A stretch of 16,603 nucleotides of DNA from a virus: UHGV virus genome UHGV-0121259; one strand, written 5' to 3'. The position numbers and the translations under genes were made by a program. Below, piece by piece: positions 374 to 16,603 of this stretch (position 1 is its first letter; every line of letters begins with the position of its first letter). The notes under the pieces were generated by a model, which was not told the DNA's origin, searched no databases, and worked only from the letters and a program-made list of their open reading frames with translations.

Positions 374-640
374 CTAACGGTTGAACGTATGCTGTATCGC
401 TGCAAGCCGTGCAATATCTTTCCTTGTCTCTGCATCCCACGGTTCGTTATAAAACCACTTTGACGGGTGAGGGAGTTCAGATAAGGTGTTACTGAACAGT
501 ACCGATACTTCACCATCATCACTGTAGGTATCGAAGATTAACCGTCTACACTCCTTTGCAAACTCTTCACCACCGAGATACAGAAGTTGCCCCTGTTTCT
601 CTGTAACATACAAATCAAAATCTCTGTGTGACATCTTCAT
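374..640 (-). CDS. hypothetical small protein (88 aa)
   Basis: ATG-initiated ORF with non-repetitive, protein-like composition; its start overlaps the stop of a degraded upstream ORF (TAATG). No family recognised by eye. Confidence 0.4.
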   Translation of the reverse strand: MKMSHRDFDLYVTEKQGQLLYLGGEEFAKECRRLIFDTYSDDGEVSVLFSNTLSELPHPSKWFYNEPWDAETRKDIARLAAIQHTFNR

Positions 641-989: not shown

Positions 990-1406
990 TCATTTTATAA
1001 GCAACGCACAGTTATTCTGATTCCAGAGTGATGCAGCAGCTTCCTCATAGTTCGGTGACACGTTCTCTACATTCCTTGCCTTGTTGAAATCTTCAATCTT
1101 GTATTCGGAGTCCTGCACCTGGTAGTGGTAGACCTCTGCAAAATCTATAGCCATTTGCTCAGGGGTAGGATTGTACTCAGTAAATCCTCTCAGATTTGGA
1201 TAGTTCTTCTTAAACAACTGCACAGCTTTCTGTTCCATCGACTGAGCCTGGTCAGGAGTCACATCAGTTCTTAATCCCATATCCATTGTGTAGGCCATAC
1301 ACCGCATTACAGCATTCATCTCGTTCATATCTGCCTGAGAAACACCTTCAGCATTGACGCATGTAACCGTGAACAATCCCAGGATAAGTACCAGCACTTT
1401 CTTCAT
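990..1406 (-). CDS. exported protein with Sec-type signal peptide (138 aa)
   Basis: N-terminus MKKVLVLILGLFTVTCVNA-EG has a typical basic n-region, hydrophobic core and AxA-like cleavage site. Two Cys in the mature part could form a disulfide. No family assigned. Confidence 0.6.
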   Translation of the reverse strand: MKKVLVLILGLFTVTCVNAEGVSQADMNEMNAVMRCMAYTMDMGLRTDVTPDQAQSMEQKAVQLFKKNYPNLRGFTEYNPTPEQMAIDFAEVYHYQVQDSEYKIEDFNKARNVENVSPNYEEAAASLWNQNNCALLIK

Positions 1407-1551
1407 TATCTACCCACCTACAAAAAAACCGCCATAGTTGAAGGGGTAGATTATTACATTATTAGTAAGCGCACAGCGAGAGCCGTATTGACGGGGATGA
1501 GTCATTCAGTTGGCGGGGTTACGCTTCAGGGTAACAGTTCGCTGACCTGAT

Positions 1552-1565
1552 TGACTGGCCAGTCA
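1552..1565. promoter_or_regulatory. 14-bp perfect palindrome TGACTGGCCAGTCA
   Basis: Perfect dyad seen directly in the sequence, in AT-rich non-coding DNA upstream of the exported-protein gene; candidate dimeric regulator binding site. Confidence 0.3.
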
Positions 1566-2066: not shown

Positions 2067-3008
2067 CTATTGATTTCTGAAGAACGCGGTCCTTGAAAGG
2101 GTCATTTGCGTCTGGCAGTCGACCATTTTCTTGACTTCAGCATCTGTTCCCTGCATTGAAACTTTACCGCACATAGCGTCCTTAGTTTTGATCCACTGGC
2201 GCTGAGAAGGCAGCAACTCTTTTTTCTTCTCTGGTGTTAATGTGCTCCAAGCGGTATTCAAATCAGAGTCAGCATTCGCAAAAGCCATTCGGGACTGATC
2301 AAGGTTGTCAGCTTTTTGTTGCTGAGGCTGCTGGTAGGATTGTTGTTGAATGGTTTGCTGAACCTGCTGCTCCGCCTCATATTTAGCCTGTTGCTGCGCC
2401 CTGAGTTGTGCCTGTTGTTCCGCTTCAATTTGACTTTGCTGGGCATCCTTAGCCTGCTGGATTTTCTGCTGCTCAACGATCGGGTTGATGATGGAAAGCG
2501 ATGTCAGTGCAGCGGCACCCACTGATATTGGGTTATCAGAAGAAGCTTTCACAAAAACGTTTTTCTGATCGTCGGTTGCCTGTGCGGTGTAGGAGATGCG
2601 TTTTGAAAAGGCGTTTGCGTTGTTATCCAAAGACAGGCTTTCCATTTGCTTGTCGAGATTACGGTTAAAGTTCTTTCTGTAAGCATCAGAAAGCTGTGCG
2701 TACTCGTTCGCAGGTAGGGTCATCGTCACGGTCCCTTCACAAGTTTTCATTGTGCTGCCCGTGTCACTTGAAGTTGTGGAGATTTCAGAGATGGTCAGTT
2801 TAATCTTGTCCAAAGCGCTTCGTTTGGTCTGATTAGTGACGTCAGGGTATTTGTCGACCTGTTCAGAGAGACCTTCATAAGCAGATTTTTTTATTAAATC
2901 CATGAGAGCTGACTGGGTCATTTCAGAGGAACAACCGATCACGTCTTTTTTGTTATCACAGCCTGTAATGGCAACGGCGAGTAAGAGTGCTGAGTATTTT
3001 AATCTCAT
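2067..3008 (-). CDS. lipoprotein with Gln-rich coiled-coil segment and C-terminal DUF1311 (LprI-like) domain
   Basis: Lipobox LLAVAITGC at the N-terminus; central Q/A/E-rich heptad-like stretch; C-terminus (ADSDLNTAWSTL...QRQWIKTKDAMCGK...VDCQTQMTLSRTAFF) fits the DUF1311 pattern of a conserved W, two Cys and an Arg. Confidence 0.7.
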   Translation of the reverse strand: MRLKYSALLLAVAITGCDNKKDVIGCSSEMTQSALMDLIKKSAYEGLSEQVDKYPDVTNQTKRSALDKIKLTISEISTTSSDTGSTMKTCEGTVTMTLPANEYAQLSDAYRKNFNRNLDKQMESLSLDNNANAFSKRISYTAQATDDQKNVFVKASSDNPISVGAAALTSLSIINPIVEQQKIQQAKDAQQSQIEAEQQAQLRAQQQAKYEAEQQVQQTIQQQSYQQPQQQKADNLDQSRMAFANADSDLNTAWSTLTPEKKKELLPSQRQWIKTKDAMCGKVSMQGTDAEVKKMVDCQTQMTLSRTAFFRNQ

Positions 3009-3459
3009 GAGTTCCCTTTAGAGTAAGGATTGGCTTTTAAGAGGCGGTCTGTAATCAGTCTGGAGGGCTATAGCAAACAGCGCTGAACACTGAACGCATC
3101 ACAAGCAAGAACCAAGGTGGTATCGGCAAAGACTGTGGAATCTTTAATTCAACTGATGAGAACGGTATGCACAAGGTTCAGTATCGATTATCCCGATGCA
3201 GGAAACCTGCAAGGCAGGTTTTGCTGCTGAACTTAAAAAAAGCTAGGTAAAGTCGGTACTGGCGTACCATTTATGACCTTTCACCTCCGCGGTGCACGAA
3301 AAAAATTCCGCAGAAATTCGTTCTTGGCTCATGTGTTCTGCTCCCTTCAAATTAATGCAGACCAAACTTAGCAACTTCCGCTCCTGGCACGAAGCCGACT
3401 ATACGCCTGAAGTATCATAGCTTAATTGGTTCTCTACACTCGCCACTGGGAGCGACTAC

Positions 3460-4104
3460 CTACGTTCTCTTCCCCCGTCCCATCTTCAGTACCTCATAAA
3501 AGGTCCCTCGCCCAAGCCCGTCTGACAACAATTCTCGCTCCTGAGCCAGCGTTTTCAGCTTTCGAAGTATCCGATCCGAAGCCGGCTTATCAGACGTCCC
3601 GTAACGCCCGTCAGTCTCCTCAACCAGAAGCTGAACCAGTAGCCAGCAGAGTCGGGCTGTATTCTCCCGCGCTTTGTCACGCTTATGCATCCCACGCTGG
3701 GAAGGTTGTGCTGAAGCAGTGAGATCCGGTAGCGCATCGTCGCCGAGTGTCTTCAGCCACTTGCGGCCACGGCTGTTGCGTGACAGTTTCATCACCGCCT
3801 TAAGGCTGCGGGCCTTAATTTCTGGCGGCGTGAGTTCGTCATCAATAAGCCGCCAGGCCAGGGCAAACATTTCATCGGCATAGAACATGCGTTTATTCGC
3901 CGGGGCGCTGATCATGCCCGTTGCTTTGATGGTGCGGCTGATGGCGTCGTGCAGGATACGGTAATTTTCCTGATGTTCTTCCGGCAGGGCGTTTGCAGGT
4001 TGGGAAGCATCGAGGCCGAGAAGCAGAAGGGCGAGATGCCGCGCTTCCAGCAGCGGCATATCACATTCCCGTTCAAACAGATTCTGACTAATGGGGCTGG
4101 TCAC
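3460..4104 (-). CDS. hypothetical protein (about 214 aa) coupled to integrase
   Basis: GTG start at 4104 lies 6 nt after a strong AAAGGAG Shine-Dalgarno embedded in the integrase 3' end; the integrase stop is at 4106-4108. No family recognised. Confidence 0.55.
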   Translation of the reverse strand: MTSPISQNLFERECDMPLLEARHLALLLLGLDASQPANALPEEHQENYRILHDAISRTIKATGMISAPANKRMFYADEMFALAWRLIDDELTPPEIKARSLKAVMKLSRNSRGRKWLKTLGDDALPDLTASAQPSQRGMHKRDKARENTARLCWLLVQLLVEETDGRYGTSDKPASDRILRKLKTLAQERELLSDGLGRGTFYEVLKMGRGKRT

Positions 4105-4105
4105 A

Positions 4106-5353
4106 TTATTCTCCTTTCACGATCTGCAGCGGTTCTTCTGCACCGAGCAGCGCCTGTCGTCTGGCAGCATCAACGTAGTTTCCCCACCACTGCATCAGCG
4201 GTCGCCTTTGTTCCAGGTAATCGCTGCGGTTATAGGCCGCTTCGATCTCGTCTTCTTTCTGGTGTGCCAGCGCAGATTCCAGAACTTCACGGGGGAAATG
4301 ACCTGCGCCTGCGGTCCTGGCGATGCTGCGCATGCCGTGGGCGACCAGTTCACCGCCAAACCCCATACGGATAAGCGCGGCGTTCGCGGTCTGTTGGTGC
4401 ATATGCTCCAGTGGTTTGCGAATGCTGGGGAAAACCCACGGACGATGGCGGCTGACTGGCTCCATGATCTGAAGAACGCGCAGTGCCTGTTTGCTGAGCG
4501 GCACCGTATGCGAACGGTTCATCTTCATAAAGGTGTCAGGGATACGCCATTCTGCTTTTTTCATATCGATGTCACACCAGCGGGCGCTAACGGCTTCGCC
4601 GGGGCGAACCCAGGTCAGTAGCTCCCATTCGATAAGGCAGCGGGTTTCCTTGCGGATAGAGGCGTTCTGTAGTGCCAGCATCAGCCTACCCAACTCGCTG
4701 GGGTGGAGTGCGGGCATGTTCTGCTTTTTCGGTTTCTTGAAGCGGGCGACCAGGTTGTCAGCCGGATTGAACTCGATGAGCTCTTCGGAGATGGCAAAGC
4801 GGAAGATTTCATTGAGCCGCGAGATAACCCGCCGCAGCGTTTCGAGGATGCCCTGTTCTTCCAGCGGTGTGAGGTGTTCCTTGAGTATTTTCGGGCGGAT
4901 CTCGGTGACGGGCGTATGGCCCAGAGAAGGAAAGACGTGCATCTCCAGCGAACGCCAGATATCTTTGACGTGATCTTCGCTGAGTCCACAGGTCCGTTTT
5001 TTCTCTTCCAGCCACTGTCCGGCTACCTTTTCCAGCGTGCATTCATTCTGGATGCGTTTTTCTTCGGCCATTTCAGCTAAGTGTTGACGAGGATCGATGC
5101 CCTGCCAGAGCAGTCGTCTGTACTGTGTGCGAGTTTCGCGGGCCATCGCCAGTGTAACGACCGGGTAAGGGCCAAGGCTGGTTTTGGTGCGCTTTTTGGT
5201 GACGGGATGATAATACTCGAAATGCCAGGCCTTCCTCCCTGAAGTCTTAACCAGCAAGTACAGGCCTTCACCGTCCCGTAGCTCATAATCTGTGCTACGG
5301 GGCTTCGCGCCAGCGATCTCCACATTTGTTAAGGGTTTCAGTTGCTTAGGCAT
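4106..5353 (-). CDS. int: P4-family tyrosine integrase (site-specific recombinase)
   Basis: 415 aa; N-terminal arm-binding region (KPLTNVEIAGAKP...DGEGLYLLV) and C-terminal catalytic region with conserved His/Arg/Tyr context (HGMRSIARTAG...ALAHQ...AYNRSDYLEQRR), resembling CP4-57 IntA-type integrases. Lies immediately downstream of the ssrA 3'-end att copy on the same strand. Confidence 0.9.
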   Translation of the reverse strand: MPKQLKPLTNVEIAGAKPRSTDYELRDGEGLYLLVKTSGRKAWHFEYYHPVTKKRTKTSLGPYPVVTLAMARETRTQYRRLLWQGIDPRQHLAEMAEEKRIQNECTLEKVAGQWLEEKKRTCGLSEDHVKDIWRSLEMHVFPSLGHTPVTEIRPKILKEHLTPLEEQGILETLRRVISRLNEIFRFAISEELIEFNPADNLVARFKKPKKQNMPALHPSELGRLMLALQNASIRKETRCLIEWELLTWVRPGEAVSARWCDIDMKKAEWRIPDTFMKMNRSHTVPLSKQALRVLQIMEPVSRHRPWVFPSIRKPLEHMHQQTANAALIRMGFGGELVAHGMRSIARTAGAGHFPREVLESALAHQKEDEIEAAYNRSDYLEQRRPLMQWWGNYVDAARRQALLGAEEPLQIVKGE

Positions 5354-5357
5354 GTTT

Positions 5358-5397
5358 TAGCACCACACTTTTTTAGCCCCACGATACCGTGGTGCTA
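5358..5397. promoter_or_regulatory. dyad symmetry in the integrase leader (TAGCACCAC / GTGGTGCTA, with inner palindrome CCACGATACCGTGG)
   Basis: 9-bp inverted repeat spaced about 22 nt, directly upstream of the int start codon at 5353 and covering its weak ribosome-binding region; possible operator or translational control hairpin. Confidence 0.3.
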
Positions 5398-5451
5398 AAC
5401 ATGGTGCCAAAAGGTCAAAATTCATACAGAGATCATGACCACACATGCAAC

Positions 5452-5489
5452 AAAAAAGCCTGCAACTCGTTGAAGTTACAGGCTTTTTT
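5452..5489. terminator. candidate bidirectional rho-independent terminator
   Basis: AAAAAAGCCTG-(16-nt loop with inner CAAC/GTTG pairing)-CAGGCTTTTTT; an A-run and a T-run flank the stem, so it can terminate on either strand. Sits between the ssrA fragment and int. Confidence 0.45.
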
Positions 5490-5519
5490 AAGGTTCATGA
5501 TGCATCATGAATGAATGTT

Positions 5520-5564
5520 TGGTGGAGCTGGCGGGAGTTGAACCCGCGTCCGAAATTCCTACAT
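5520..5564 (-). repeat. ssrA: 45-bp fragment of the ssrA (tmRNA) 3' end; attachment-site core shared by the two elements
   Basis: Minus strand reads ATGTAGGAATTTCGGACGCGGGTTCAACTCCCGCCAGCTCCACCA, matching the tmRNA 3' acceptor/T-arm and CCA tail as I recall the E. coli sequence. DNA 5' of it (5565 onward) is AT-rich and unrelated to tmRNA, so this is a partial copy, not a gene. Confidence 0.85.
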
Positions 5565-5649
5565 ACCATTTTTACCATAATGAAAACAGTTGTTTGTATT
5601 TAAAAACAGTATGTTAGTGTTGTTTTGTGTTAGTCCGTTTTATCCGTTT

Positions 5650-6717
5650 TTAACTCTCTGCCGCCACTTTGTCGCCATTAAAGGTAAGCAGAGGATCCGT
5701 TTTACCACTATAAGTGGAGATAACTTGAAAGATTGGTACATCATACTTTGCTATCAAATCTGCTATCATGAAAATCTTGCCAGAAGATGCATCGTCTTTG
5801 TATGAAAAAAAATCATCTGTAATATCAAGAATGTCTATCGTAAATTTAAAGTAAGTCGCTATGGTATTTCCAAGCTCACTACTAGACATGAAGTTTGTGA
5901 AAATTTGATATCCTTCTGTAGATAAGGAGGCATGTTCATTTAAACTGACAGTGGTCAAACACAACATCCGGTTTAATTTTAATAGTTTAAATTCTATTGA
6001 ATGTAGTGCTTGCATTTGACGCACTAGAACGTCATTGATATCTAACCCTTTATTCGATGAAGCAAAGCTTTCCATGGATTTAAGAATTTCGAGCCAATAT
6101 TTATTGATTTTTTTTATATATTCTTTATTTGCTTTTGCTGGCCTACCTTTTTCTGGGTTGCTTTCGTCAAATATATATCTATATAAATGTATAGGGTATG
6201 AAACCTTGCATGTAATCTCATGTATTTCAAGGTGGCGTTTGCGATGAATTATTTGGCCAGGTAAATTAGTAAAGTAATCAGTGACAAATTTCAAATGGCT
6301 ATAATGACTATCTGAAAGATTTTTTTGTTTAGCCTCCTGAATCTGTCGATTTGTTTGAACTGTCCGATGAATGTTAGCTACTACGGCAACAAATGGTATG
6401 GATAAAGAAAGTAACGCGATGGGAAGTTTGCTAATAGCAATGAAATTATTAAATCCATCACTGTTAAATTGCGGACTATGTCCAAGCCAGGAAAATAAAC
6501 CAAAATAAAATGATGATAGTAATGGTATCCTTATTGATTGTTTGAATAAGTATTGTTTTGTTAACGGTCTTTCATCCATTTCAAAAGCTTTTTTATTTAT
6601 ACAGAGTGTTAACTCAATAAACACATATAACACATACAAAGATATTAGTGCATATGACAGCCATGAATGTTGTTGAATAAAATCGTTAATAAACACTTTT
6701 TGAGTTTCTCCATCCAA
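5650..6717 (-). CDS. AT-rich membrane-anchored protein of unknown function (about 355 aa), cargo gene between att core and prophage integrase
   Basis: Long ORF in a markedly AT-rich segment (by eye) unlike flanking phage DNA. Three hydrophobic helices in the first ~120 residues, then a ~235-aa K/N/I/Y-rich soluble domain. The start codon is uncertain (TTG at 6717 or GTG at 6696); both overlap the integrase 3' end. Confidence 0.6.
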   Translation of the reverse strand: MDGETQKVFINDFIQQHSWLSYALISLYVLYVFIELTLCINKKAFEMDERPLTKQYLFKQSIRIPLLSSFYFGLFSWLGHSPQFNSDGFNNFIAISKLPIALLSLSIPFVAVVANIHRTVQTNRQIQEAKQKNLSDSHYSHLKFVTDYFTNLPGQIIHRKRHLEIHEITCKVSYPIHLYRYIFDESNPEKGRPAKANKEYIKKINKYWLEILKSMESFASSNKGLDINDVLVRQMQALHSIEFKLLKLNRMLCLTTVSLNEHASLSTEGYQIFTNFMSSSELGNTIATYFKFTIDILDITDDFFSYKDDASSGKIFMIADLIAKYDVPIFQVISTYSGKTDPLLTFNGDKVAAES

Positions 6718-7726
6718 GATTAGCTAGTGGATTCTTTGTTACTGCATCTTCTAAATGGTCGGGGGCAAAGTGGGCGTAAACCATCGTCATTTTTATATCG
6801 GCATGACCCAAAATATCTCGCAGTACCAATATATTTCCGCCGTTCATCATAAAGTGGCTGGCGAATGTATGGCGCAGCACGTGGGTGCATTGCCCCTCCG
6901 GCAGATCAATACTGGCCCGCTTTACTGCCCGCTCAAAGGCTTTTCTGCATGGCGTGAATAACTTCCCTCTGTTTTTGGGGAGTTCTTCATACAGATCCTG
7001 AGAAATAGGCACGGTACGGTTTTTCTTGCCCTTGGTCTTGGTATAGGTGATCCGGTATTTCGATAACTGATGGCCCTGCAGGTTTTCGGCTTCACTCCAG
7101 CGCGCGCCGGTGGCCAGGCATATTTTTGCAATCATCAGCAGGCTGGGGCTTTGAGATTCCGCGCAGGCATCCAGTAGGCGTTTAATTTCTTCCGGAGCCA
7201 AGAACGCCAGCTCACCTTCTGCGATTTTAAATGTTGGTAGCCCGGCGAGAGGGTTTGGTGCTGACCAGTGGCCTAGCTTTTTCAGGGTGCCAAAAACCGA
7301 TGATAGGTTACGTTGTTCGAGGTTTACCGTTCGGGGCTTAACTGGTGACATAAACGCGCCATCTTCATTTCGCATTTCACCTTTTAGCCGCGCTTCCCGA
7401 TATTTTGTGAAATCGGCTGCCGTTAACTCTGAAGCAACCGGATCGCCCAGACCATTACAAATAATGTTGAGTTTCGCCATTAGACGTTTCGGATCCGCAA
7501 GCGTCTGACCGTAGAGTGAGTGCCATTGCTCAATTACTTCTGACAAGCGCCGCCGATCTTCCTTCTCACCAAGCCATGGCTTTTTGTTCACTTCATCCAT
7601 GGTGAAGTTTTCGAATGCTACGGCCTCACCTTTCGTCGCAAATTGCTTGCGCACGCGTTTGCCGTCGCGTCCGTTTGGGTAGCATTCACACAACCATTTT
7701 CCGTTCGGCTGCTTTCTGATGGTCAT
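6686..7726 (-). CDS. int: P2/186-family tyrosine integrase
   Basis: 346 aa; N-terminal arm-binding type fold (KQPNGKWLCECYPNGRDGKRVRKQFATKGEA) and C-terminal catalytic box HVLRHTFASHFMMNGGNILVLRDILGHADIKMTMVYAHF. ATG at 7724-7726, three nucleotides downstream of the repressor stop, as in the P2 C-int operon. Confidence 0.9.
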   Translation of the reverse strand: MTIRKQPNGKWLCECYPNGRDGKRVRKQFATKGEAVAFENFTMDEVNKKPWLGEKEDRRRLSEVIEQWHSLYGQTLADPKRLMAKLNIICNGLGDPVASELTAADFTKYREARLKGEMRNEDGAFMSPVKPRTVNLEQRNLSSVFGTLKKLGHWSAPNPLAGLPTFKIAEGELAFLAPEEIKRLLDACAESQSPSLLMIAKICLATGARWSEAENLQGHQLSKYRITYTKTKGKKNRTVPISQDLYEELPKNRGKLFTPCRKAFERAVKRASIDLPEGQCTHVLRHTFASHFMMNGGNILVLRDILGHADIKMTMVYAHFAPDHLEDAVTKNPLANLGWRNSKSVY

Positions 7727-7729
7727 AAG

Positions 7730-8362
7730 TTAGAGGCTCTTGATTACTTTTATAGCACGGCCTACAACCTCGATATCATCAAGGCTGCACTCAAAAGATG
7801 ACTCACCCTGCTGGACAATTAAGCGATTGCCGGGGATGCGTGCAAGTTTAGCTATCGTTTTTATTCCATCAATATCAACGAGCCATACGCCATTTACTGG
7901 TGGAGTACCGCTACGGTCAACGAGGTAAGAGCCATCGTCTGTATGGATGAGCCACGGATTAGTCATGTTGTGGGGGATTAGACTTTTATCCAATATCACC
8001 TTGCCTTGGTCCACTAAAGCGCCACCATCTAATGTGGCCTTATCAATTTCAGGCGCTACAACCTCGGATAACGGTTTGATGTGGGGCTGGTTCACAAAAC
8101 CAAAACTATTTTCCTGCGCATTATTATCATTTTTATCACCTTGCCCAGTCGTTAACCAAAGCAGCGAAACCCCAGTTTCAAGAGCGCACTGTATAACCCA
8201 TTCTGCAGGGAAGCTATCTCTTAAGTATCTGTTTGCCATAGTGCTTTTTGAAACGGAAAGATGGTCACACAACTGCTGTCGAGAGTTGAAGTTATAAGCC
8301 TTAATCAGCCTATTGATAGCTTCACGCCCTCCGCTCTCATTACCTACCTTGATAGATCTCAT
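7730..8362 (-). CDS. phage CI-type immunity repressor (186-like size class)
   Basis: About 210 aa directly upstream of and co-oriented with int, divergent from the early operon; N-terminal region has an HTH-like segment (QQLCDHLSVSKSTMANRYL). No GDSM-type S24 peptidase motif seen, so probably not autocleavable. First ATG at 8360-8362. Confidence 0.65.
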   Translation of the reverse strand: MRSIKVGNESGGREAINRLIKAYNFNSRQQLCDHLSVSKSTMANRYLRDSFPAEWVIQCALETGVSLLWLTTGQGDKNDNNAQENSFGFVNQPHIKPLSEVVAPEIDKATLDGGALVDQGKVILDKSLIPHNMTNPWLIHTDDGSYLVDRSGTPPVNGVWLVDIDGIKTIAKLARIPGNRLIVQQGESSFECSLDDIEVVGRAIKVIKSL

Positions 8363-8478: not shown

Positions 8479-8721
8479 ATGAGCACTGATATTTCAATTC
8501 GTGTACCTAAAGAGATGGCTACGCCTGCAGAGTTCGCTGAATGGGAAGGTATCTCCCGTGGTTCTGTTTACCAGAAAATTCACCATGGTCAGCTTGCTAA
8601 GTACATGGTCAAGAAAGAAAAAAACAAAGGTCGCGTAAGTCTGCGTTACCTGATGTACAAAACCGACCAGGTTCGAGAATCCCTCGGTCATTCCAACTTT
8701 CGCGTCATTGTTGGTCAGTAA
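8479..8721 (+). CDS. Cox/Apl-like small DNA-binding protein (excisionase and switch regulator position)
   Basis: 80 aa, first gene of the operon divergent from CI; winged-helix-like segment ATPAEFAEWEGISRGSVYQKIHHGQL; position equals P2 cox / 186 apl. Confidence 0.5.
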   Translation: MSTDISIRVPKEMATPAEFAEWEGISRGSVYQKIHHGQLAKYMVKKEKNKGRVSLRYLMYKTDQVRESLGHSNFRVIVGQ

Positions 8722-8753: not shown

Positions 8754-9263
8754 ATGTTTGATTATAAGATTTCCAAACATCCACACTTTGACGAAGCCTG
8801 CCGGGCTTTCGCGCTGCGTCACAACATGGCGAAGTTGGCAGAACGCGCAGGAATGAATGTCCAGACGCTGCGCAATAAGCTGAACCCGGAGCAACCGCAT
8901 CAACTTACGCCGCCGGAGATCTGGCTGCTGACTGATATCACAGAAGACTCAACGCTGGTTGACGGTTTTCTGGCTCAAATCCATTGCCTGCCGTGCGTGC
9001 CATTGAATGAAGTGGCAAAAGAGAACCTGCCACATTACGTCATGAGTGCAACTGCGGAGATTGGGCGTGTAGCTGCAGGCGCAGTATCCGGTGATGTGAA
9101 AACCAGTGCAGGCCGCCGCGATGTGATCAATAGCATCAACTCAGTTACGCGCCTTATGGCACTCACTGCAGTTTCATTGCATGCGCGTTTGCAGGCGAAT
9201 CCGGCGATGGCAAGCGCGGTAGATACCGTGACGGGCCTGGGCGCTTCGTTCGGTCTGATCTGA
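8754..9263 (+). CDS. CII-like regulatory protein (186 CII position and size)
   Basis: 169 aa with strong GAGAGAGG ribosome-binding site; second gene of the early operon; helix-turn-helix-like N-terminal region. Assignment is by synteny and size, not verified by alignment. Confidence 0.45.
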   Translation: MFDYKISKHPHFDEACRAFALRHNMAKLAERAGMNVQTLRNKLNPEQPHQLTPPEIWLLTDITEDSTLVDGFLAQIHCLPCVPLNEVAKENLPHYVMSATAEIGRVAAGAVSGDVKTSAGRRDVINSINSVTRLMALTAVSLHARLQANPAMASAVDTVTGLGASFGLI

Positions 9264-9270
9264 GGTGGCT

Positions 9271-9471
9271 ATGCTGACTAAAGAACCATCTTTTGCATCA
9301 CTGCTCGTTAAGCAAAGTCCTGCAATGCACTGCGGTCATGGCTGGATTATGGGGAAGGATGGCAAGCGCTGGCATCCATGCCGCTCTCAGGATGCGCTGC
9401 TGGACGAACTGTCTACTAAAAAGCAGGGGAAACCATGGCTATTGAAGGCGATGCTGCGACTGTTCCGCTAA
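9271..9471 (+). CDS. hypothetical small protein (66 aa)
   Basis: ATG at 9271 preceded by GAGGTGG; Cys/His-containing (HCGHGW...WHPC), possibly metal-binding; early operon. Confidence 0.4.
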   Translation: MLTKEPSFASLLVKQSPAMHCGHGWIMGKDGKRWHPCRSQDALLDELSTKKQGKPWLLKAMLRLFR

Positions 9472-9776
9472 GCGCTGGCCTCCGCCTTAATGGGTTAAAC
9501 CACATCGCGGAATTAAGGGCGAAAGTGTTTGGCTTAAATATTGATTCAGAACTGGAGCGCTTTATTAGCGATATGCGGGACCAACGGGATATTAACCATG
9601 AGCAGAATAAACGCGCACTAGCCGCAATATTCTTTATGGCAAAGATTCCGGCGGAACGTCATAGCGTCAATGTTAGTGAGCTGACGACTGACGAAAAGCG
9701 GAATCTGATTAAAACAATGAACCATTTCCGTACAGTGGTGAGTTTATTTCCAAATCGGCTAGCCATGCCGAATTAA
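9435..9776 (+). CDS. hypothetical protein (113 aa)
   Basis: ATG with AGGGGA ribosome-binding site; overlaps the previous ORF by 37 nt in another frame; early operon. Confidence 0.4.
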   Translation: MAIEGDAATVPLSAGLRLNGLNHIAELRAKVFGLNIDSELERFISDMRDQRDINHEQNKRALAAIFFMAKIPAERHSVNVSELTTDEKRNLIKTMNHFRTVVSLFPNRLAMPN

Positions 9777-9843
9777 TCCACAACCGAAATTAAAGGCGTA
9801 AACCCGCCGGGCATCTTATTGCCCAAATTCAGGAGAAACAACA

Positions 9844-10077
9844 ATGCGAAATATTGAAACCCGAATCACCAAAACAGGACCAGATGATGCTGGCCTTAAC
9901 CAGATGCTGACTGATGCGCGCATGGAAGAACGCCGTGCACGTGCTGCGGCAATGGTAGCCCGTCTTGATAGCCTGGCTTGCCATATCACGTCACGCCAGC
10001 TTAATCACGTTGAAGCGGCGGAGCTGCTGCGTATTGCGGCTGAAAACATTCAGAACGAAGCGCAGGAGATCCACTGA
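9844..10077 (+). CDS. hypothetical protein (77 aa)
   Basis: ATG with AGGAGA ribosome-binding site; stop overlaps the next start (TGATG). Confidence 0.45.
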   Translation: MRNIETRITKTGPDDAGLNQMLTDARMEERRARAAAMVARLDSLACHITSRQLNHVEAAELLRIAAENIQNEAQEIH

Positions 10078-10304
10078 TGGCTGATTCAATGGACCTTGTA
10101 CAGCAGCGCGTTGAAGAAGAACGTCAGCGCCACATCCACACCGCCCGCAACAGAACGCCGGGCGTTTCCCGTGTGCTTTGCATTGATTGTGATGCACCGA
10201 TCCCGCCAGAACGTCGCCGCGCTATTCCGGGCGTGCAGTGTTGCGTCACCTGTCAGGAAATTGCGGAGCTGAAAGGCAAACATTACGTAGGGGGTGCTGT
10301 ATGA
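10077..10304 (+). CDS. TraR/DksA-family C4 zinc-finger protein
   Basis: 75 aa with CIDCDAPIPPERRRAIPGVQCCVTCQ, the four-Cys zinc-finger spacing of phage TraR-like proteins; stop overlaps the dam start (ATGA). Confidence 0.7.
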   Translation: MADSMDLVQQRVEEERQRHIHTARNRTPGVSRVLCIDCDAPIPPERRRAIPGVQCCVTCQEIAELKGKHYVGGAV

Positions 10305-11158
10305 GCACTATCCTGAAATGGGCGGGTAATAAAACCTCCATCATGGCAGAACTGAAAAAACACCTTCCAGCAGGCCCGCGACTGGTTGAACCTTTCGCGG
10401 GTTCATGCGCTGTGATGATGGAGACAGACTATCCTCATTATCTTGTCGCGGATATTAATCCAGACCTGATTAATCTCTATCAGGTGATTAAAAATGATGT
10501 TGAATACTTCATCAAAGAGGGCAGATATCTTTTTGAAGCCCGTAATGATCCAGAGGCATATCATAAGACGAGACAGGAGTTTAACTTGCGCCATGGTGGT
10601 GCAATTGAACGCGCATTGTATTTCTTATATTTAAATCGCCATGGTTATCGCGGACTGTGTCGCTATAACTTGGACGGTTATTTTAATGTTCCTTACGGAA
10701 ATTATAAAAAGCCGTACTTCCCTGAAAACGAAATATGCGCATTTGCAGAAAAAGCAAAACGCGCAACGTTTATCTGCGCCAGCTATGACGAGACACTGGC
10801 ACTGCTGCAAACGGGTGATGTTGTCTATTGCGATCCACCATATGACGGCACGTTTAACGGATATCACACAGCTGGTTTTACAGAGGATGATCAGTACCAT
10901 CTGGCGTCTATTCTTGAGCGCCGGTCATTAGACGGTCATACGGTTATCGTGTCCAACAGCGATACGTCTCTGACCCGTTCGCTTTATCGTGATTTTACCC
11001 GCCATCGTATAACCGCTAAGCGCAGCATGGGCGTGGCTGCCGGTGATAGTAAAACTGCAGTAGAAATCATCGCCACAAAATCAGCATGCTGGTTTGGTGT
11101 TGATTTGGCGTCTGGTCCTGATATCTCGGTGGAAGCTGAGGTGCGGGCGTGGCAGTGA
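10301..11158 (+). CDS. dam: DNA adenine methyltransferase (Dam-like, N6-adenine)
   Basis: 285 aa; SAM-binding motif [11 protein letters not shown] and catalytic DPPY (VYCDPPYDG); GGGGTG ribosome-binding site; 3' end overlaps the replication gene start by 10 nt. Confidence 0.85.
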
Positions 11159-13557
11159 GTAAATTCACATTACATCATGCACAAACCACCGGCGGCTCGA
11201 ATGAGGCCGCGGTGGCTTTTCCATGGAATGCCCCAAAAAAAGCGGTTAACCCGTATCTGGACCCGGCGGAAGTAGCGCCGGAGTCTGCGCTTTCAAACCT
11301 CATCACTCTGTACGCAGCGGATAACGAGCAGGGGCATCTGCGCCGTGAGGCGCTGAGTGATAAGGTTTGGGAACGTTATTTCTTCAATGAATCCCGTGAT
11401 CCTGTCCAGCGTGAAATAGAGCAGGATCAGCTAATTAGCCATGCCAAAATGGCCCGCGAACAGCAGCGCGTTAATCCCGATTTGGTGATTATTGCCGATG
11501 TAAGCGCTATGCCTGCTCATATCAGCAAGCCTCTGCTGGAGCGGATTAAATACTTCCATAGCCTAGGTAGGGCTAAAGCTTATTCCCGCTATCTGCGCGA
11601 AACAATCAGGCCTTGTCTTGAGCGGCTGGAGCGCGTGCGTGACAGCCAGGTGTCTGCGTCTTTCCTGTTCATGGCGAGCCAAGACGGGCTGGAGGGGCTA
11701 CTGGTACTGCCTGAAATGAGTCAGGATCAGGTCAAACGTTTGTCCACGCTGGTTGCGGCACATATGAGCATGTGCCTTGATGCTGCCAGCGGTGATCTGT
11801 TTGTTGCTGAAGATGTTAAGCCAGAAGAAATCCGCCAGGTATGGGAAAGGGTTGCTGCAGAAGCCATGCGCCTTGAGGTCATCCCGCCTGCCTTTGAGAA
11901 GTTGCGCCGCAAAAAGCGCCGCCGCAAGCCGGTGCCTTATGAACTGATCCCACCGTCGCTGGCGCGCATGCTGTGCGCGGACTGGTGGTATCGCAAATTG
12001 TGGCAGATGCGCTGTGAGTGGCGGGAGGAGCAACTGCGTGCCGTCTGCCTAGTCAACAAGAAAGCGTCCCCGTATGTCAGCTATGAAGCCGTGATCCACA
12101 AACGCGAGCAGCGCCGTAAATCGCTGGAGTTCTTCCGCTCGCATGAGCTGGTCAACGAAGACGGCGACACGCTGGACATGGAAGACGTGGTGAACGCCAG
12201 CAACAGCAACCCGGCACACCGCCGTAATGAAATGATGGCCTGTGTTAAGGGACTGGAGCTGATCGCGGAAATGCGCGGAGACTGCGCGGTGTTTTATACC
12301 ATCACCTGCCCGTCACGCTTCCACGCAACCCTCAACAACGGCAGACCTAATCCGAAGTGGACCAGTGCCACTGTCCGGCAGAGCAGTGACTACCTGGTTG
12401 ATACGTTCGCCGCTTTCCGCAAGGCCATGCACAAGGCCGGGCTGCGCTGGTATGGCGTTCGCGTTGCAGAGCCGCACCATGACGGCACCGTGCACTGGCA
12501 TCTTCTGTGCTTCATGCGCAAAAAAGACCGCCGTTCCATCACCGCACTGCTGCGTAAGTTTGCCATCCGTGAAGACCGCGAGGAGCTGGGCACCAATACC
12601 GGGCCGCGCTTCAAGTCCGAGCTAATCAATCCGCGCAAGGGAACGCCGACCAGCTATATCGCCAAATACATCAGTAAGAACATCGACGGGCGTGGGCTGG
12701 CTAAAGAAATCAGCAAAGAAACCGGAAGATCACTGCGTGACAGCGCCGAGCATGTCAGCGCCTGGGCGTCACTGCACCGTGTTCAGCAATTTCGTTTCTT
12801 TGGTATTCCTGGGCGTCAGGCATACCGCGAGCTGCGCTTGCTTGCTGGTCAGGCGGCGAGAGTGCAGGGCGAACGCAAAGCGGGTGCGCCGGTACTGGAT
12901 AACCCGCGTCTGGATGCGGTACTGGCAGCTGCAGATGCGGGTTGCTTTGCCACTTATATCATGAAGCAGGGCGGTGTACTGGTTCCCCGCAAACATCACC
13001 TTGTCCGCACGGCTTATGAGCTTAACGACGAACCGAGCGCCTACGGCGATCACGGTATCCGTATCTATGGCATCTGGTCCCCGATTGTTGAGGGCAAGAT
13101 TTGCACGCACGCGATGAAGTGGAAAAAGATTCGTAAGGCCGTTGACGTTCAGGAGGCGGCAGCCGACCAGGGCGCTTGCGCCCCTTGGACTCGTGGCAAT
13201 AACTGTCCCCCTGTTGAAAATCTGAACAAATCAGGGGGTGATTTACCTGATATTAAAACCATGGGTGAGAAGGAGCTGCAGGAATATCTCCACAACATGG
13301 GCCAGAAGGAACGGCGGGAGCTGACAGCCAGGTTAAGACTGGTAAAACCTAAGCGGAAAAAAGCCTATAAACAGAATATTTCGGAGCAGCAGCGTCTGCA
13401 GCTTGAGGCAGAACTGACAGCCAGAGGATTTGAAGGTAGTGCATCGGAGATTGATTTGCTCCTGCGTGGCGGCAGCATTCCATCAGGTGCCGGGCTGCGT
13501 ATTTTTTACCGTAACCAGCGGCTGCAGGAAGATGACAAATGGCGTCAGTGGTACTAA
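11149..13557 (+). CDS. replication initiation endonuclease (P2 gpA-type rolling-circle initiator)
   Basis: 802 aa with GTG start; contains the twin-tyrosine motif SYIAKYISK typical of phiX174/P2 A-type nickases; position and size match gene A of P2/186. Confidence 0.85.
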
Positions 13558-13715: not shown

Positions 13716-13904
13716 ATGCAGGACTATCTTTTGGAGTCATTAAAGCTCCAGCGTATTGATTTTTTTATCAAGCTTGTAGCGGCTAGTGAGTGCAGCGATG
13801 AAGAAAAGCGGCTGGCTATCCAGTGGGTGTCCGAACTGACCGACGAGCTGATGGCGAAAATCCGCAGCCATGAATACTGCCGGTCAATGGACGTAACCAG
13901 TTAA
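13716..13904 (+). CDS. small SOS-operon protein (62 aa), candidate Tum-like antirepressor
   Basis: ATG at 13716 is 4 nt after a perfect GGAGGG ribosome-binding site; first gene downstream of the LexA box and immediately upstream of dinI-like, mirroring the 186 tum-orf97 operon layout. Function inferred from context only. Confidence 0.4.
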   Translation: MQDYLLESLKLQRIDFFIKLVAASECSDEEKRLAIQWVSELTDELMAKIRSHEYCRSMDVTS

Positions 13905-13915
13905 AGGGAATCTGT

Positions 13916-14149
13916 ATGCGCATTGAAATAATGATCGATAAAGAGCAGAAGATTAGCCAGTCTACACTGGACGCCCTTGAATCCGAGCTTTACCGTAATT
14001 TGCGCCCTCTGTATCCCAAAACAGCAATTCGTATCCGCAAGGGCAGCGCCAATGGCGTTGAACTGAGCGGGTTAAAACTGGATGAAGACAAACAGCGAGT
14101 GATGGAAATAATGCAGCAGGTCTGGGAGGACGACAGTTGGTTACATTAG
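13916..14149 (+). CDS. dinI: DinI-family protein
   Basis: 77 aa; MRIEIMIDK...DALESEL...DEDKQRVMEIMQQVWEDDSW aligns by eye with E. coli DinI (MRIEVTIAK...DALAGEL...KEDKQRISEILQETWESADDW). Confidence 0.85.
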   Translation: MRIEIMIDKEQKISQSTLDALESELYRNLRPLYPKTAIRIRKGSANGVELSGLKLDEDKQRVMEIMQQVWEDDSWLH

Positions 14150-14282
14150 CGAACGTTGCGGACGATAAAACTGGTTTTTACCGTCCGCAAGGTTGAACAA
14201 CGAGCCACGCGAGGCGTTAGTGCTGTTGTGCATGTCTATGCCGCATGAAATCGCATGATCGTTTGAGGATCGTTTTTGCTGA

Positions 14283-14308
14283 GGCCCGCCAGAACTGGCG
14301 GGCTTTTG
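14283..14308 (+). terminator. rho-independent terminator of the SOS operon
   Basis: GGCCCGCCAG-AA-CTGGCGGGC followed by TTTTGCTT. Confidence 0.6.
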
Positions 14309-14353
14309 CTTATGTCATGCAGGTGCATGAAAACCGCTACACAAAGCGGGCAG

Positions 14354-14372
14354 GCGTGGCGGGGATACGAGC
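14354..14372. other. candidate cos (cohesive end) site of the prophage
   Basis: GGCGTGGCGGGGATACGAG; the first 13 nt match my recollection of the 186 cohesive end (GGCGTGGCGGGGAAAGCAT). It lies in a 450-bp non-coding GC-rich stretch between the late-early region and the portal gene, where cos sits in P2/186. Recollection-based, unverified. Confidence 0.3.
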
Positions 14373-14598
14373 GCGCGCCGCGGGGTGAAATAGTAAAATT
14401 CACTTAGCCTCAGGCCCGCTGATGGCTTCCTTCTGAAAGGGAGGGGGCGTTTTTGTGCAATCTTGTTTGAAGGGATTTAAATAAATGTTGAATGTGTTCC
14501 GGAGTTGGCTGTAGATTTAGTGTTCTGTCACAAGTTGCAGTGATAGGTAGCAAACCTTTAAAAGGTTCTGCTATTGTTTCATTAAAGATTTATAGTCT

Positions 14599-15198
14599 TT
14601 GTCCGAAAATGACATTAAAGTAGTCGCCTTTAATGTCGTAAGCATGAAGGACAGAGAATTGAACTTAGAGCAGATTGCCAGTCAAAGTATAAGTAACCTT
14701 CAGTTTCTTCTCGATACTTTGAAGATGCCGTTGGCTGTTGGTCCAATCAGTGATGAAGACTATGTGATCCTGACCACAGGATACGCTCAGCTAGAATGGG
14801 ATTATGGTTTTTCTCGGTTTGGCAATCGAAGTGATAAGTTTGAATTTTGTTTGAAGCTCCTTGCGGGGCCACTTAGGCATATCCCTTCTGGCGCAGCTAT
14901 GTGCACCTTTGATGAGGACGCTGGAGTCATAGAGATCCATTTTGTGGAATCTTTTGTGAAAGATGATGACGTAGAGCATCCTCTTTACGGCAACATGTTC
15001 ATGGTTACATTGTGGGCGGTATATCTTTTTGGTAGCGCGGTTGGGTGTCAAGAGATTCGCATCCCTGAAGCCCTGAATCAAAAAGTTGCTGATCACTATA
15101 AAAAATTTGGTTTTAAAGGTGATATAAGCTTGCTTTCGGCACCTTTTGCTACAATAACTGATGTAGTAAGACGCTACATTACTTCTAAGAAACAGTAG
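14599..15198 (+). CDS. hypothetical protein (184-199 aa), cargo gene; possible divergent GNAT-like fold
   Basis: ORF in a lower-GC segment (by eye) between cos-like site and portal gene. Start uncertain (TTG 14599 or ATG 14644, neither with a strong ribosome-binding site). C-terminal EALNQKVADHYKKFGF resembles acetyltransferase motif B (e.g. AtaT EALNEKAHTFYKSLGF), but the CoA-binding Q/R-x-x-G-x-G/A motif is not evident. Confidence 0.55.
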   Translation: MSENDIKVVAFNVVSMKDRELNLEQIASQSISNLQFLLDTLKMPLAVGPISDEDYVILTTGYAQLEWDYGFSRFGNRSDKFEFCLKLLAGPLRHIPSGAAMCTFDEDAGVIEIHFVESFVKDDDVEHPLYGNMFMVTLWAVYLFGSAVGCQEIRIPEALNQKVADHYKKFGFKGDISLLSAPFATITDVVRRYITSKKQ

Positions 15199-15512: not shown

Positions 15513-16553
15513 CTAGTCAGTATTAAGCTCATATGGATTGAATCGGACTACCTCTTCACCAAGCCATTCATTTAGCTCCAGTAATCGCTTTTGTAACGGT
15601 ACTATTTCGTTTCTTGTGAAGACGCGACTGGCCTTTTCCACATCCCCAAAACCGCCGGTATTGTTGGGAATGATACCCATCATTTGCGGCGGCACGCGGT
15701 GCGCTGCCATCATGTCATCACGGCTCACATTCTTGATGTTGAGAAATTCATCTTTCGCCGCTACCTCTGACAGCGGAATGATTTGAATCCCGTCTTTTTT
15801 GCCGTTGGGCGAGTACATGAATAGATTGCGGAAGTTGCCAGGGCCCTTGGCGCTTTTCATGGCCTGGCGGATATTGTTCACGTCCTCCTGGTTTTGCGCG
15901 GCGTCGGTCATATACATGATAAAGCCCGCATGGCTACCGTTAATGTAATACTTCCGGCGGAACAGCGTGGCGGACTCGTTGAGCAGGGCTGATGGAATGG
16001 CTGAGAGGTAACCGGGCAGCCCGTAAATCTCCTGGTTAATATCCGGCTCCATCAGGTGAAAAATGTTGCCCTGTGTAAATTCATAGGGCTGCGTGGTCAG
16101 GCCATACTGCACAAACCAGTAGGTGTCGAGGTCCACGCCACGGCGTGTGTACTTCGCCAGTGCTGGCTCCAGTGTGAGAACGCCGCCGAGCCGGTTGGTG
16201 CGCTTTTCCAGATAGGCGTTACCGAACACCAGATAATCCTGGACGAAACGGGCAAAAGCCTGCTGGCTGAGCAGGCGGTGCGGGATGTACGTACTGCTGA
16301 GAATGTCACGTTTAACCGCTATCGGTGAGCTGTGATGCACAGCGGCGCGGTAGGTTCGCGCCAGCCCGTCAAAGCTTACTGGCGGCTCATACCATCTGTC
16401 CATCTGTACGCATTCCACATAGTCCAGCAGCTCGCGGCGGTCCAGCACCGGGATCGGATCGCCAAAGCTGAAAGCCTCGGCAGCTACGCCTGCGTTTTTA
16501 GGCGCCGTAGCTTCTGTTGGCGTTGAGCTGGTTAAGGCTTCGGGTTCACTCAT
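15513..16553 (-). CDS. portal protein (P2 gpQ-like)
   Basis: About 346 aa on the opposite strand at the position and size of P2 gene Q; start ATG overlaps the stop of the upstream gene (TGATG). Assignment by synteny and size; the sequence was not aligned. Confidence 0.7.
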   Translation of the reverse strand: MSEPEALTSSTPTEATAPKNAGVAAEAFSFGDPIPVLDRRELLDYVECVQMDRWYEPPVSFDGLARTYRAAVHHSSPIAVKRDILSSTYIPHRLLSQQAFARFVQDYLVFGNAYLEKRTNRLGGVLTLEPALAKYTRRGVDLDTYWFVQYGLTTQPYEFTQGNIFHLMEPDINQEIYGLPGYLSAIPSALLNESATLFRRKYYINGSHAGFIMYMTDAAQNQEDVNNIRQAMKSAKGPGNFRNLFMYSPNGKKDGIQIIPLSEVAAKDEFLNIKNVSRDDMMAAHRVPPQMMGIIPNNTGGFGDVEKASRVFTRNEIVPLQKRLLELNEWLGEEVVRFNPYELNTD

Positions 16554-16603
16554 CAAAAAATCTCCACAATATTGCTGGTATTGGCGGACTCGCCCTGCAG
16601 CGG
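16553..16603 (-). CDS. 3' end of upstream late gene (position of terminase ATPase gpP), partial at window edge
   Basis: Open frame to the window edge ending ...NIVEIF-stop, with the stop overlapping the portal ATG. Too short to identify by sequence. Confidence 0.3.
   Translation of the reverse strand, partial: PLQGESANTSNIVEIF

What the first reader, a model, noticed from the sequence alone, without database searches (positions are those of the whole stretch)
4106..7726. Two integrases flanking one ssrA-derived att copy: tandem integration at the tmRNA gene
A single 45-bp copy of the ssrA 3' end lies between a P4-family integrase (left) and a P2-family integrase (right, separated from it by one cargo gene), all on the same strand. 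The simplest reading is successive integration of two unrelated elements into ssrA, each regenerating the att core. ssrA is an established target for the E. coli CP4-57 island, and I recall that some P2-family prophages (Fels-2 type) also use it. The intact ssrA should lie outside the window to the right of the prophage, and no third att copy is visible to the left, suggesting the older island has lost its distal end.
Basis: partly seen in the sequence, partly recalled or inferred. Interest (0 to 1): 0.5.

Follow-up and report, generated by a model that had tools for sequence, protein, structure and literature searches.

The report
Phage and island stacked at ssrA
A Fels-2-like prophage has inserted into the tmRNA gene (ssrA) next to a genomic island that also targets that gene, leaving one 45-base ssrA fragment between their two integrase genes; this is a textbook and recurrent arrangement, not a new one.

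Summary
One exact 45-nt copy of the ssrA 3' end lies at 5520-5564 (- strand). On one side is a CP4-57/P4-type integrase (4106-5353). On the other is a Fels-2/SopEPhi-type integrase (6686-7726), with one low-GC orphan gene (5650-6696) in between. All are on the - strand.

Natural comparisons fix the junction to the base. A Citrobacter-like assembly carries the same island, 100% identical over window 1-5564, directly after an intact ssrA and with no prophage. A C. portucalensis genome carries the same phage end, and its identity to the window stops at 5520, where a different island follows. A free phage attP, the SopEPhi end and an E. coli ssrA-prophage junction share a 47-nt core with the window.

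A complete E. coli genome has the predicted layout: smpB, intact ssrA, Fels-2-like prophage, ssrA fragment, P4-type integrase. Among 59 enterobacterial loci with related integrases, 45 adjoin an intact ssrA. Six adjoin only a fragment, and each of those six has a second integrase upstream.

Tandem integration is therefore supported. The intact ssrA of this genome was not reached. The claim that the island lost its distal end cannot be judged. The phenomenon is already known, so interest is low.

The parts
5520..5564 (-). Displaced 45-nt 3' end of ssrA (T-arm, acceptor 3' strand, CCA). It is the int-proximal att junction of the prophage and also the ssrA-side junction of the island. Together with 5518-5519 it forms the 47-nt core shared with phage attP.
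   Evidence: L004 identity to the window ends at 5564 and L087 identity ends at 5520.
5452..5489 (-). Hairpin and T-run terminator that follows ssrA in island-bearing genomes. It is island-borne and is conserved in E. coli CFSAN061770.
   Evidence: Sequence and alignment. This hairpin is what produced the spurious Thr_leader Rfam hit.
4106..5353 (-). CP4-57/P4-type tyrosine integrase of the ssrA island (415 aa). Its start lies 166 bp downstream of the ssrA 3' end.
   Evidence: In 45 of 59 related loci the integrase lies at the same spacing from an intact ssrA.
3460..4104 (-). 214-aa protein of unknown function (phrog_30524). It is a conserved partner directly downstream of this integrase.
   Evidence: It is 94-96% identical in E. 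coli, Citrobacter, Kluyvera and Enterobacter loci.
2067..3008 (-). Island cargo: a 313-aa protein with a weak LprI-like C-terminus (phrog_5094).
990..1406 (-). Island cargo: a 138-aa orphan.
374..640 (-). Island cargo: an 88-aa orphan.
5650..6696 (-). Prophage accessory gene (moron) in the slot between int and att. It encodes 348 aa, has ~32% GC, and is predicted to have N-terminal membrane helices. Function unknown (phrog_17460).
6686..7726 (-). Fels-2/SopEPhi (186-type) integrase of the prophage (346 aa).
7730..8362 (-). 186-type CI repressor.
8479..8721 (+). Apl/Cox-like excisionase-repressor, assigned by its position between cI and cII. In phage MLG42 the gene at this position is annotated apl.
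   Evidence: Assigned by synteny only.
8754..11158 (+). Early operon: CII (8754-9263), Fil (9271-9471), DUF5347/B-like (9435-9776), DUF2732 (9844-10077), TraR (10077-10304) and Dam methylase (10301-11158).
   Evidence: Gene calls and Pfam, mapped to the window; for Dam.
11149..13557 (+). Replication endonuclease gpA.
   Evidence: Phage_GPA, E 2e-131.
13716..15198 (+). Variable region between gpA and the portal gene: a 62-aa ORF, DinI (13916-14149), and a 179-aa protein of phrog_4350 (14659-15198).
15513..16556 (-). P2-type portal protein gene (Q). The true start is probably a few codons inside the ORF.
   Evidence: An exact-sequence look-up of the 347-aa ORF failed.

Best explanation
The window spans the boundary between two independent integrative elements stacked at the tmRNA gene of a Citrobacter-like enterobacterium.

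The first is a genomic island with a CP4-57/P4-type integrase. It sits in its canonical place, with the integrase start 166 bp downstream of the ssrA 3' end.

The second is a Fels-2/SopEPhi-like temperate phage (Peduoviridae). Its attP carries a 47-nt core, made of the last 45 nt of ssrA plus AA. The phage recombined with the ssrA copy that preceded the island.

This Campbell-type insertion put the phage-borne 3' end and a phage terminator onto the body of ssrA, which keeps the gene intact at the far end of the prophage. That step is inferred here and shown only in an E. coli analogue. It displaced the previous 45-nt 3' end, its island-borne terminator and the island to the int-proximal end of the prophage. 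The single fragment therefore serves as the junction for both elements.

Island first and phage second is the most economical order, but the layout alone does not prove it.
For: The 45-nt fragment and the identity of both integrases are established.

Empty-site control: L004 (NCBI GCA_045798925.1) and L006 carry the same island behind an intact ssrA (tmRNA at 9471-9834, integrase at 10001) with no prophage. L004 is 100% identical to window 1-5564 with 0 mismatches, and the identity ends exactly at the 5' edge of the fragment.

Reciprocal control: L087 (named Citrobacter portucalensis by NCBI for the identical cargo protein) has the same phage end and core, 94.7% identical over 5520-7906. The identity ends exactly at the CCA, and a different P4-type integrase island follows.

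Att sites: the attP of the free Yersinia phage MLG42, the SopEPhi end, the E. coli L3_E36 ssrA-prophage junction, the L004 ssrA-island junction and the window junction all share an invariant 47-nt block. The flanks are exchanged as reciprocal recombination predicts. Phage records begin matching the window at 5518-5520.

Same architecture in a complete genome: E. coli NZ_LR882997 reads smpB, intact ssrA, Fels-2-like prophage, ssrA fragment, P4-type integrase.

Recurrence: of 59 enterobacterial loci with relatives of the island integrase, 45 adjoin an intact ssrA. Six (L030, L043, L047, L050, L054, L068) adjoin only a 3' fragment, and each has another integrase gene immediately upstream, either Fels-2-type or lambdoid-type. 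L093 is a further case.

Not an assembly artefact: the junction is 100% and 99.99% identical in two separate metagenome assemblies.

Literature: SopEPhi and Fels-2 integrate into ssrA (PMC3448106). [quoted passage not shown]
Against: The intact ssrA at the far end of this particular prophage lies outside the window and outside every contig I could read, so regeneration of ssrA is inferred from analogues. No distal att copy of the island was found within 15 kb, so the island's own boundaries and mobility remain undefined. The same layout would also arise if the island had integrated into the displaced 45-nt fragment after the phage. That fragment contains the whole short 3' core used by CP4-57-type elements.
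Confidence: 0.9

Rival explanations
1. Reverse order. The Fels-2-like phage integrated first into a bare ssrA. The P4-type island then integrated into the displaced 45-nt fragment at the prophage's int-proximal end rather than into the intact gene.
For: The fragment contains the last ~19 nt of ssrA. That is all that CP4-57 duplicates, as shown by the K-12 distal repeat ACTCCGCCAGCCCACCA. The fragment could therefore serve as an attB for such an integrase, and the resulting layout would be identical.
Against: The island exists without the prophage behind an intact ssrA, with 0 differences over 5,564 nt. Relatives of its integrase adjoin an intact ssrA in 45 of 59 loci. The same phage end is also found next to a different island and next to no island. 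The phage is therefore the more recently mobile partner.
Confidence: 0.07
2. Assembly chimera. A metagenome assembler joined a phage contig and an island contig through the shared ssrA repeat.
For: The best matches to the window are metagenome scaffolds, and the join lies exactly at a repeat.
Against: The junction is identical in two independent assemblies (ERZ28584583 and ERZ27238986). Analogous junctions occur in complete or isolate genomes. A 45-nt repeat is shorter than the k=119 implied by the contig names.
Confidence: 0.01
3. One composite element carrying two integrases moves as a single unit, rather than two independent elements.
For: The two integrases are adjacent and co-oriented. 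No att copy was seen at the island's far side, so a composite bounded only by outer repeats cannot be excluded from the window alone.
Against: Each half is found separately. The island occurs alone (L004, L006). The phage end occurs with another island (L087) or with none (L091, L092). Free virion genomes have their attP at exactly this core.
Confidence: 0.02

Closest known systems
SopEPhi and Fels-2 (Felsduovirus, Peduoviridae) integration into ssrA of Salmonella
   Same: The integrase is 92% identical to SopEPhi Int. The order att, accessory gene, int, cI, apl, cII ... Dam, gpA ... portal is the same. The same ssrA 3' core lies at the end of the SopEPhi record. About half the window matches these phages at 86-90% DNA identity.
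   Different: The accessory gene between att and int is unrelated to SopEPhi orfY. The host appears to be Citrobacter-like rather than Salmonella. The cargo between gpA and the portal gene also differs.
CP4-57 cryptic prophage/island of E. coli K-12 (intA, ssrA)
   Same: The integrase is of the same family, 48% identical over 404 aa and passing NCBIfam PRK09692. It has the same position and orientation just downstream of the ssrA 3' end. An AlpA gene lies further inside the island, outside the window.
   Different: The cargo is entirely different. No distal repeat was found within 15 kb. Here the island abuts only a fragment, because a prophage separates it from the gene.
Tandem island arrays at tRNA/tmRNA genes, as defined in the Islander database (Hudson, Lau and Williams 2015, PMC4383910)
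   Same: There are two elements, each with its own integrase, co-oriented with a tDNA fragment between them.
   Different: Islander requires every member to have its own fragment. The island's fragment and the intact gene are outside the available sequence.
E. coli L3_E36_ETEC (NZ_LR882997) ssrA locus
   Same: It has the same architecture base for base at the junction, and the phage part is 92% identical.
   Different: The neighbouring element there is a true P4-like satellite with psu, delta/ogr and icd genes. Here it is a metabolic or unknown-cargo island.

Membership tests
Tandem array of integrative elements at a tDNA (Islander definition) | Each member has its own tyrosine integrase gene | tested here: met
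   There are two unrelated integrases, at 4106-5353 and 6686-7726.
Tandem array of integrative elements at a tDNA (Islander definition) | A displaced tDNA fragment, co-oriented with the gene, marks the end of each member | tested here: inconclusive
   The prophage fragment is present at 5520-5564. No island distal fragment was found within 15 kb, although the same search recovers the CP4-57 distal copy in K-12 as a positive control. The island continues beyond the sequence available.
Tandem array of integrative elements at a tDNA (Islander definition) | An intact, regenerated tDNA lies at the head of the array | not testable with these tools
   It lies about 22 kb beyond the right end of the window, and no readable contig reached it. 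It is met in the analogous E. coli locus.
Fels-2/SopEPhi-like (186-type) P2-family prophage | 186-type Int, CI, Apl and CII switch, followed by gpA and the P2-type portal gene in P2 order | tested here: met
   Pfam hits Int_N, Phage_CI_repr plus Phage_CI_C, Phage_CP76, Phage_GPA and Phage_portal. DNA matches to Fels-2, SopEPhi, SEN8 and MLG42.
Fels-2/SopEPhi-like (186-type) P2-family prophage | attP core equal to the ssrA 3' end | tested here: met
   A 47-nt block is invariant between the MLG42 attP, the SopEPhi end and the window junction.
CP4-57/P4-type ssrA islands | Integrase with a P4-type arm-binding domain, central domain and catalytic domain | tested here: met
   Arm-DNA-bind_3, Phage_int_M and Phage_integrase domains. 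PRK09692 scores 459 bits against a cut-off of 434. It is 48% identical to IntA.
CP4-57/P4-type ssrA islands | The integrase gene lies immediately downstream of, and co-oriented with, the ssrA 3' end | tested here: met
   The spacing is 166 bp here and in L004. The spacing is the same, within a few bases, next to an intact ssrA in 45 of 59 related loci.
P4-like phage satellite | P4 genes such as psu, delta, sid or the alpha primase | tested here: not met
   The island ORFs in the window have no such Pfam hits. None appear in the 15 kb of island in L003 and L072. The E. coli L3_E36 neighbour does have them.

The most novel reading that the evidence does not exclude
The low-GC, 348-aa orphan gene (5650-6696) lies between the prophage integrase and att, and overlaps the 3' end of int. 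It is co-oriented with cI and int, so it could be co-transcribed with them in the lysogen; that is a conjecture, not something I tested. It may be a new membrane-anchored superinfection-exclusion, anti-phage or lysogenic-conversion factor. It has no recognisable family or fold.
Probability: 0.25. Interest if true: 0.4.

Novelty: already known. Interest (0 to 1): 0.12.

Why it matters
It matters little beyond correct annotation. It is a clean example, resolved to the base, of how the tmRNA gene accumulates mobile elements in tandem, and of how one short gene fragment can mark the boundary of two elements at once.

In practice it shows that the prophage ends at 5518-5520. The DNA to the left belongs to a separate island and should not be counted as prophage cargo.

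The comparison loci show that phage and island combine freely. The same phage end sits next to different islands, one of which carries GAPS4 defence genes. That is relevant to how defence and metabolic cargo are shuffled at this hotspot.

Tried and rejected
Reaching the intact ssrA of the source genome failed. The exact look-up of the portal ORF found nothing. The 179-aa gene near the portal gene is shared by many P2-like prophages at other sites. By the contig lengths and locus ranges, and assuming a prophage of about 33 kb as in Fels-2, both long contigs that carry the junction end inside the prophage.

A search for a third att copy found none. I used 25-mers with up to 3 mismatches, 16-mers with up to 2 mismatches, and a 19-mer with up to 3 edits, which recovers the K-12 control. 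I do not read this as loss, for the reasons given in the report.

Two extra Rfam hits are by-products of the ssrA fragment and its terminator: tmRNA_permuted at 5342-5577 and Thr_leader at 5449-5518. Both were rejected.

The papers by Pelludat et al. 2003 and Williams 2003 are not held in the library. I cite them only through papers that reference them.
Full report
**Observation**

The window has no complete tmRNA gene (ARAGORN). Rfam aligns 5520-5609 (- strand) to the tmRNA model with high posterior only over the last ~50 positions (E 2e-9). Read on the - strand, the sequence ends ...GGTATGTAGGAATTTCGGACGCGGGTTCAACTCCCGCCAGCTCCACCA at 5520.

The 45-mer starting at ATGTAGG occurs once, at 5520-5564. 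There is no second copy even with 3 mismatches, and none was expected by chance. It is identical to the last 45 nt of ssrA in L004 and in E. coli K-12.

To its left is ORF 4106-5353 (-), a P4/CP4-57-type integrase:
- It has Arm-DNA-bind_3, Phage_int_M and Phage_integrase domains.
- It passes NCBIfam PRK09692 above the cut-off.
- It is 48% identical to K-12 IntA.

To its right is a 348/355-aa ORF with no Pfam family (5650-6696/6717). Then comes ORF 6686-7726 (-), a 186/Fels-2-type integrase that is 92% identical to SopEPhi Int. This is followed by a 186-type CI repressor and, on the + strand, CII, Fil, a B-like gene, TraR, Dam and gpA. A P2-type portal gene lies on the - strand.

The two integrases share no meaningful similarity.

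**What lies on each side**

From 5518-5520 rightwards the window matches Fels-2, SopEPhi, SEN8 and Yersinia phage MLG42 at 86-90%. It also matches prophages in E. coli at up to 92%. Nothing to the left of 5519 matches any phage record.

The segment 3455-5519 (integrase plus a 214-aa ORF) matches E. coli chromosomes at about 93%. In E. coli CFSAN061770 that integrase lies directly after an intact ssrA next to smpB.

**Natural controls define the junction to the base**

Exact-protein look-ups recovered several informative contigs.

L003 and L005 are two separate metagenome assemblies. They are 99.99% and 100% identical to the window across the junction, which rules out a chimeric join.

L004 (NCBI GCA_045798925.1) and L006 carry the same island with no prophage. 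An intact tmRNA gene lies at 9471-9834 and the identical integrase starts at 10001. L004 is identical to window 1-5564 with no mismatch, and the identity stops exactly at the 5' edge of the 45-mer (alignment).

Conversely, the cargo protein led to L087 (GCA_048350715.1). NCBI names the identical protein from Citrobacter portucalensis. In L087 the phage end and core match window 5520-7906, and the identity stops exactly at the CCA. A different P4-type integrase then follows, with GAPS4-type defence genes, ParA, TraD and MobA.

The 45-mer is therefore the only sequence common to "island only" and "phage plus another island". This is what site-specific recombination within that core predicts.

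**Att sites**

I aligned five sequences:
- the attP of the free phage MLG42, which lies between a small ORF and int;
- the end of the SopEPhi record;
- the ssrA-prophage junction of E. coli L3_E36;
- the ssrA-island junction of L004;
- the window junction.

They share an invariant 47-nt block, made of 45 nt of ssrA plus AA, at window 5518-5564. The flanks are swapped as in a Campbell insertion. The window has the phage int-side arm on one side and the island flank on the other. E. coli L3_E36 has the ssrA body on one side and the other phage arm, including a phage-borne terminator, on the other.

PMC3448106 states that SopEPhi and Fels-2 integrate into ssrA.

**The predicted intact gene**

I could not reach the far end of this prophage. 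In the complete E. coli L3_E36_ETEC chromosome the same architecture is fully visible. The order is smpB, intact ssrA, a small ORF, ogr, D ... Q ... A ... cI, int, an accessory ORF, the ssrA fragment, then a P4-type integrase belonging to a P4-like satellite. That ssrA is regenerated in the source genome is thus an inference from a close analogue and from the attP sequence. It is not shown directly.

**How ordinary is it?**

A scan of one genome per species found 59 enterobacterial loci encoding relatives of the island integrase.
- In 45, an intact ssrA ends about 166 bp upstream of the integrase.
- In six (L030, L043, L047, L050, L054, L068), only a 3' fragment is there. In every one, another integrase gene sits immediately upstream in the same orientation. 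It is Fels-2-type in L068 and L043, and lambdoid-type with an S24 repressor nearby in L030, L047 and L054. In L050 it is a truncated integrase ORF with only the catalytic domain.
- L043 still shows the intact gene 5 kb further up, with a decayed prophage in between.

A further E. coli case appeared by chance (L093). In 5,426 complete E. coli genomes the 45-mer has 5,695 places, which is 269 more than one per genome, and up to 4 in a single genome.

The Islander database paper describes the regenerated-gene/displaced-fragment principle. It lists 125 tandems of two or more among 3,919 islands. [quoted passage not shown] A Klebsiella survey found ssrA occupied by islands in more than half of the strains, with 22 different islands (bioRxiv 10.1101/2020.11.02.365908).

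**Order of events**

The layout alone does not fix the order. The 45-nt fragment contains the whole short 3' core that CP4-57-type elements duplicate. The K-12 distal copy is ACTCCGCCAGCCCACCA. The island could therefore in principle have entered the displaced fragment after the phage.

Three observations favour a resident island and a more recently gained phage, or a phage recently lost by excision in the sister lineage:
- The island-only state shows zero differences over 5.5 kb.
- This integrase family dominantly associates with an intact ssrA.
- The same phage end is found next to other islands or next to none.

**The "lost distal end" inference**

No further copy of the ssrA end exists in the 15 kb to the left of the fragment in L072. 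The search does recover the two-deletion distal copy in K-12.

The island nevertheless continues throughout that stretch. It carries a regulator, an ornithine cyclodeaminase-like gene, a PALP enzyme, AlpA, DHDPS, an MR_MLE enzyme, an MFS transporter, and then a second AlpA. Only 1 of the 59 related loci shows a distal repeat within the ~10 kb of sequence held downstream of the integrase (L063). CP4-57 itself is 22 kb long. The window therefore says nothing about loss, and the verdict on this point is "cannot tell".

**Host**

The chromosomal flank upstream of ssrA in L004 carries a bapA-like giant adhesin and a type I secretion system. It is 91% identical to Citrobacter meridianamericanus and 87% identical to C. 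youngae. The exact cargo protein is named from C. portucalensis. A Citrobacter freundii-complex host is inferred, not shown.

**The gene between int and att**

It has about 32% GC against 50-58% for the phage backbone. It belongs to a small family of 34 clusters, and every source that names an organism gives an enterobacterial genus. It has no Pfam, NCBIfam, PADLOC or PDB sequence match, only phrog_17460 of unknown function.

Homologues at 42-52% identity occupy the same place, overlapping the 3' end of a Fels-2-type int. The slot is variable:
- It is empty in MLG42.
- It holds an unrelated orfY in SopEPhi.
- It holds other ORFs in L068 and in E. coli L3_E36.

An AlphaFold model is confident (pLDDT 83). 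It shows N-terminal hydrophobic helices, a 65-residue helix and an alpha/beta C-terminal part. It has no informative structural neighbour. A role in exclusion or defence is conjecture.

**Verdict**

The interpretation as tandem integration at ssrA is supported, with two caveats: the intact gene was not seen in this genome, and the distal-end claim is unfounded. The phenomenon, both element families and even this exact architecture are already documented in public genomes and in the literature. It is a tidy but ordinary case.

Noticed in passing
window 5650-6696 (-): A low-GC (~32%) orphan gene of 348 aa sits in the prophage int-att slot. It is predicted to be membrane-anchored and has no known family or fold. 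Even distant homologues occupy this position. The slot is empty or holds unrelated genes in related phages.
   Followed up: partly
L087:11345-21047 (GCA_048350715.1; NCBI names the identical cargo protein from Citrobacter portucalensis): The same phage end and core is followed by a different ssrA island. That island has a 408-aa P4-type integrase, GAPS4-type defence genes (PDDEXK_GAPS4, GAPS4b_N), ParA, TraD and MobA. Phage and island therefore combine freely at ssrA.
   Followed up: partly
window 3460-4104 (-): A 214-aa protein of unknown function (phrog_30524) starts two bases after the island integrase gene ends. It is conserved at 94-96% identity next to this integrase in E. coli, Citrobacter, Kluyvera and Enterobacter. 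It may be a functional partner of the integrase.
   Followed up: no
window 13557-15513: The region between gpA and the portal gene holds a 62-aa ORF, DinI and a 179-aa phrog_4350 protein. In relatives carrying the same 179-aa gene, the neighbouring cargo varies: HipA_C plus HIRAN proteins, an HNH-like protein, or a 225-aa protein with no family. The E. coli L3_E36 prophage has DUF2971 plus DUF4145 at this position. From my own knowledge, this corresponds to the known variable P2 tin/old position.
   Followed up: partly
L043:4235-9834 (uncultured Enterobacteriaceae MAG): An intact ssrA and a second 3' fragment lie only 5.2 kb apart. Between them is a decayed Fels-2-like prophage (CI, int, and a CII-baseplate J fusion ORF), followed by the P4-type integrase. 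This appears to be a later stage of the same tandem.
   Followed up: partly
L072:10993-20267 (island beyond the left end of the window): The island continues with a PAS/HTH regulator, an ornithine cyclodeaminase-like gene, a PALP enzyme, AlpA, DHDPS, a mandelate racemase-like enzyme, an MFS transporter and a second AlpA gene. Two AlpA genes suggest that the island is itself a composite or a further tandem.
   Followed up: no
window 5342-5577 and 5449-5518 (-): The Rfam sub-threshold hits to tmRNA_permuted and Thr_leader are artefacts of the ssrA 3' fragment and of the terminator hairpin that follows it.
   Followed up: yes
L004:1-9398: In this host a bapA-like giant adhesin gene and its type I secretion genes lie immediately upstream of ssrA. 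In E. coli, smpB occupies that position.
   Followed up: no
L041:47-72 and 9816-9835 (Yersinia ruckeri ATCC 29473): Two degenerate ssrA 3' copies lie 9.7 kb apart upstream of the related integrase, and ARAGORN finds no intact tmRNA in the locus. This may be another tandem with diverged cores.
   Followed up: no
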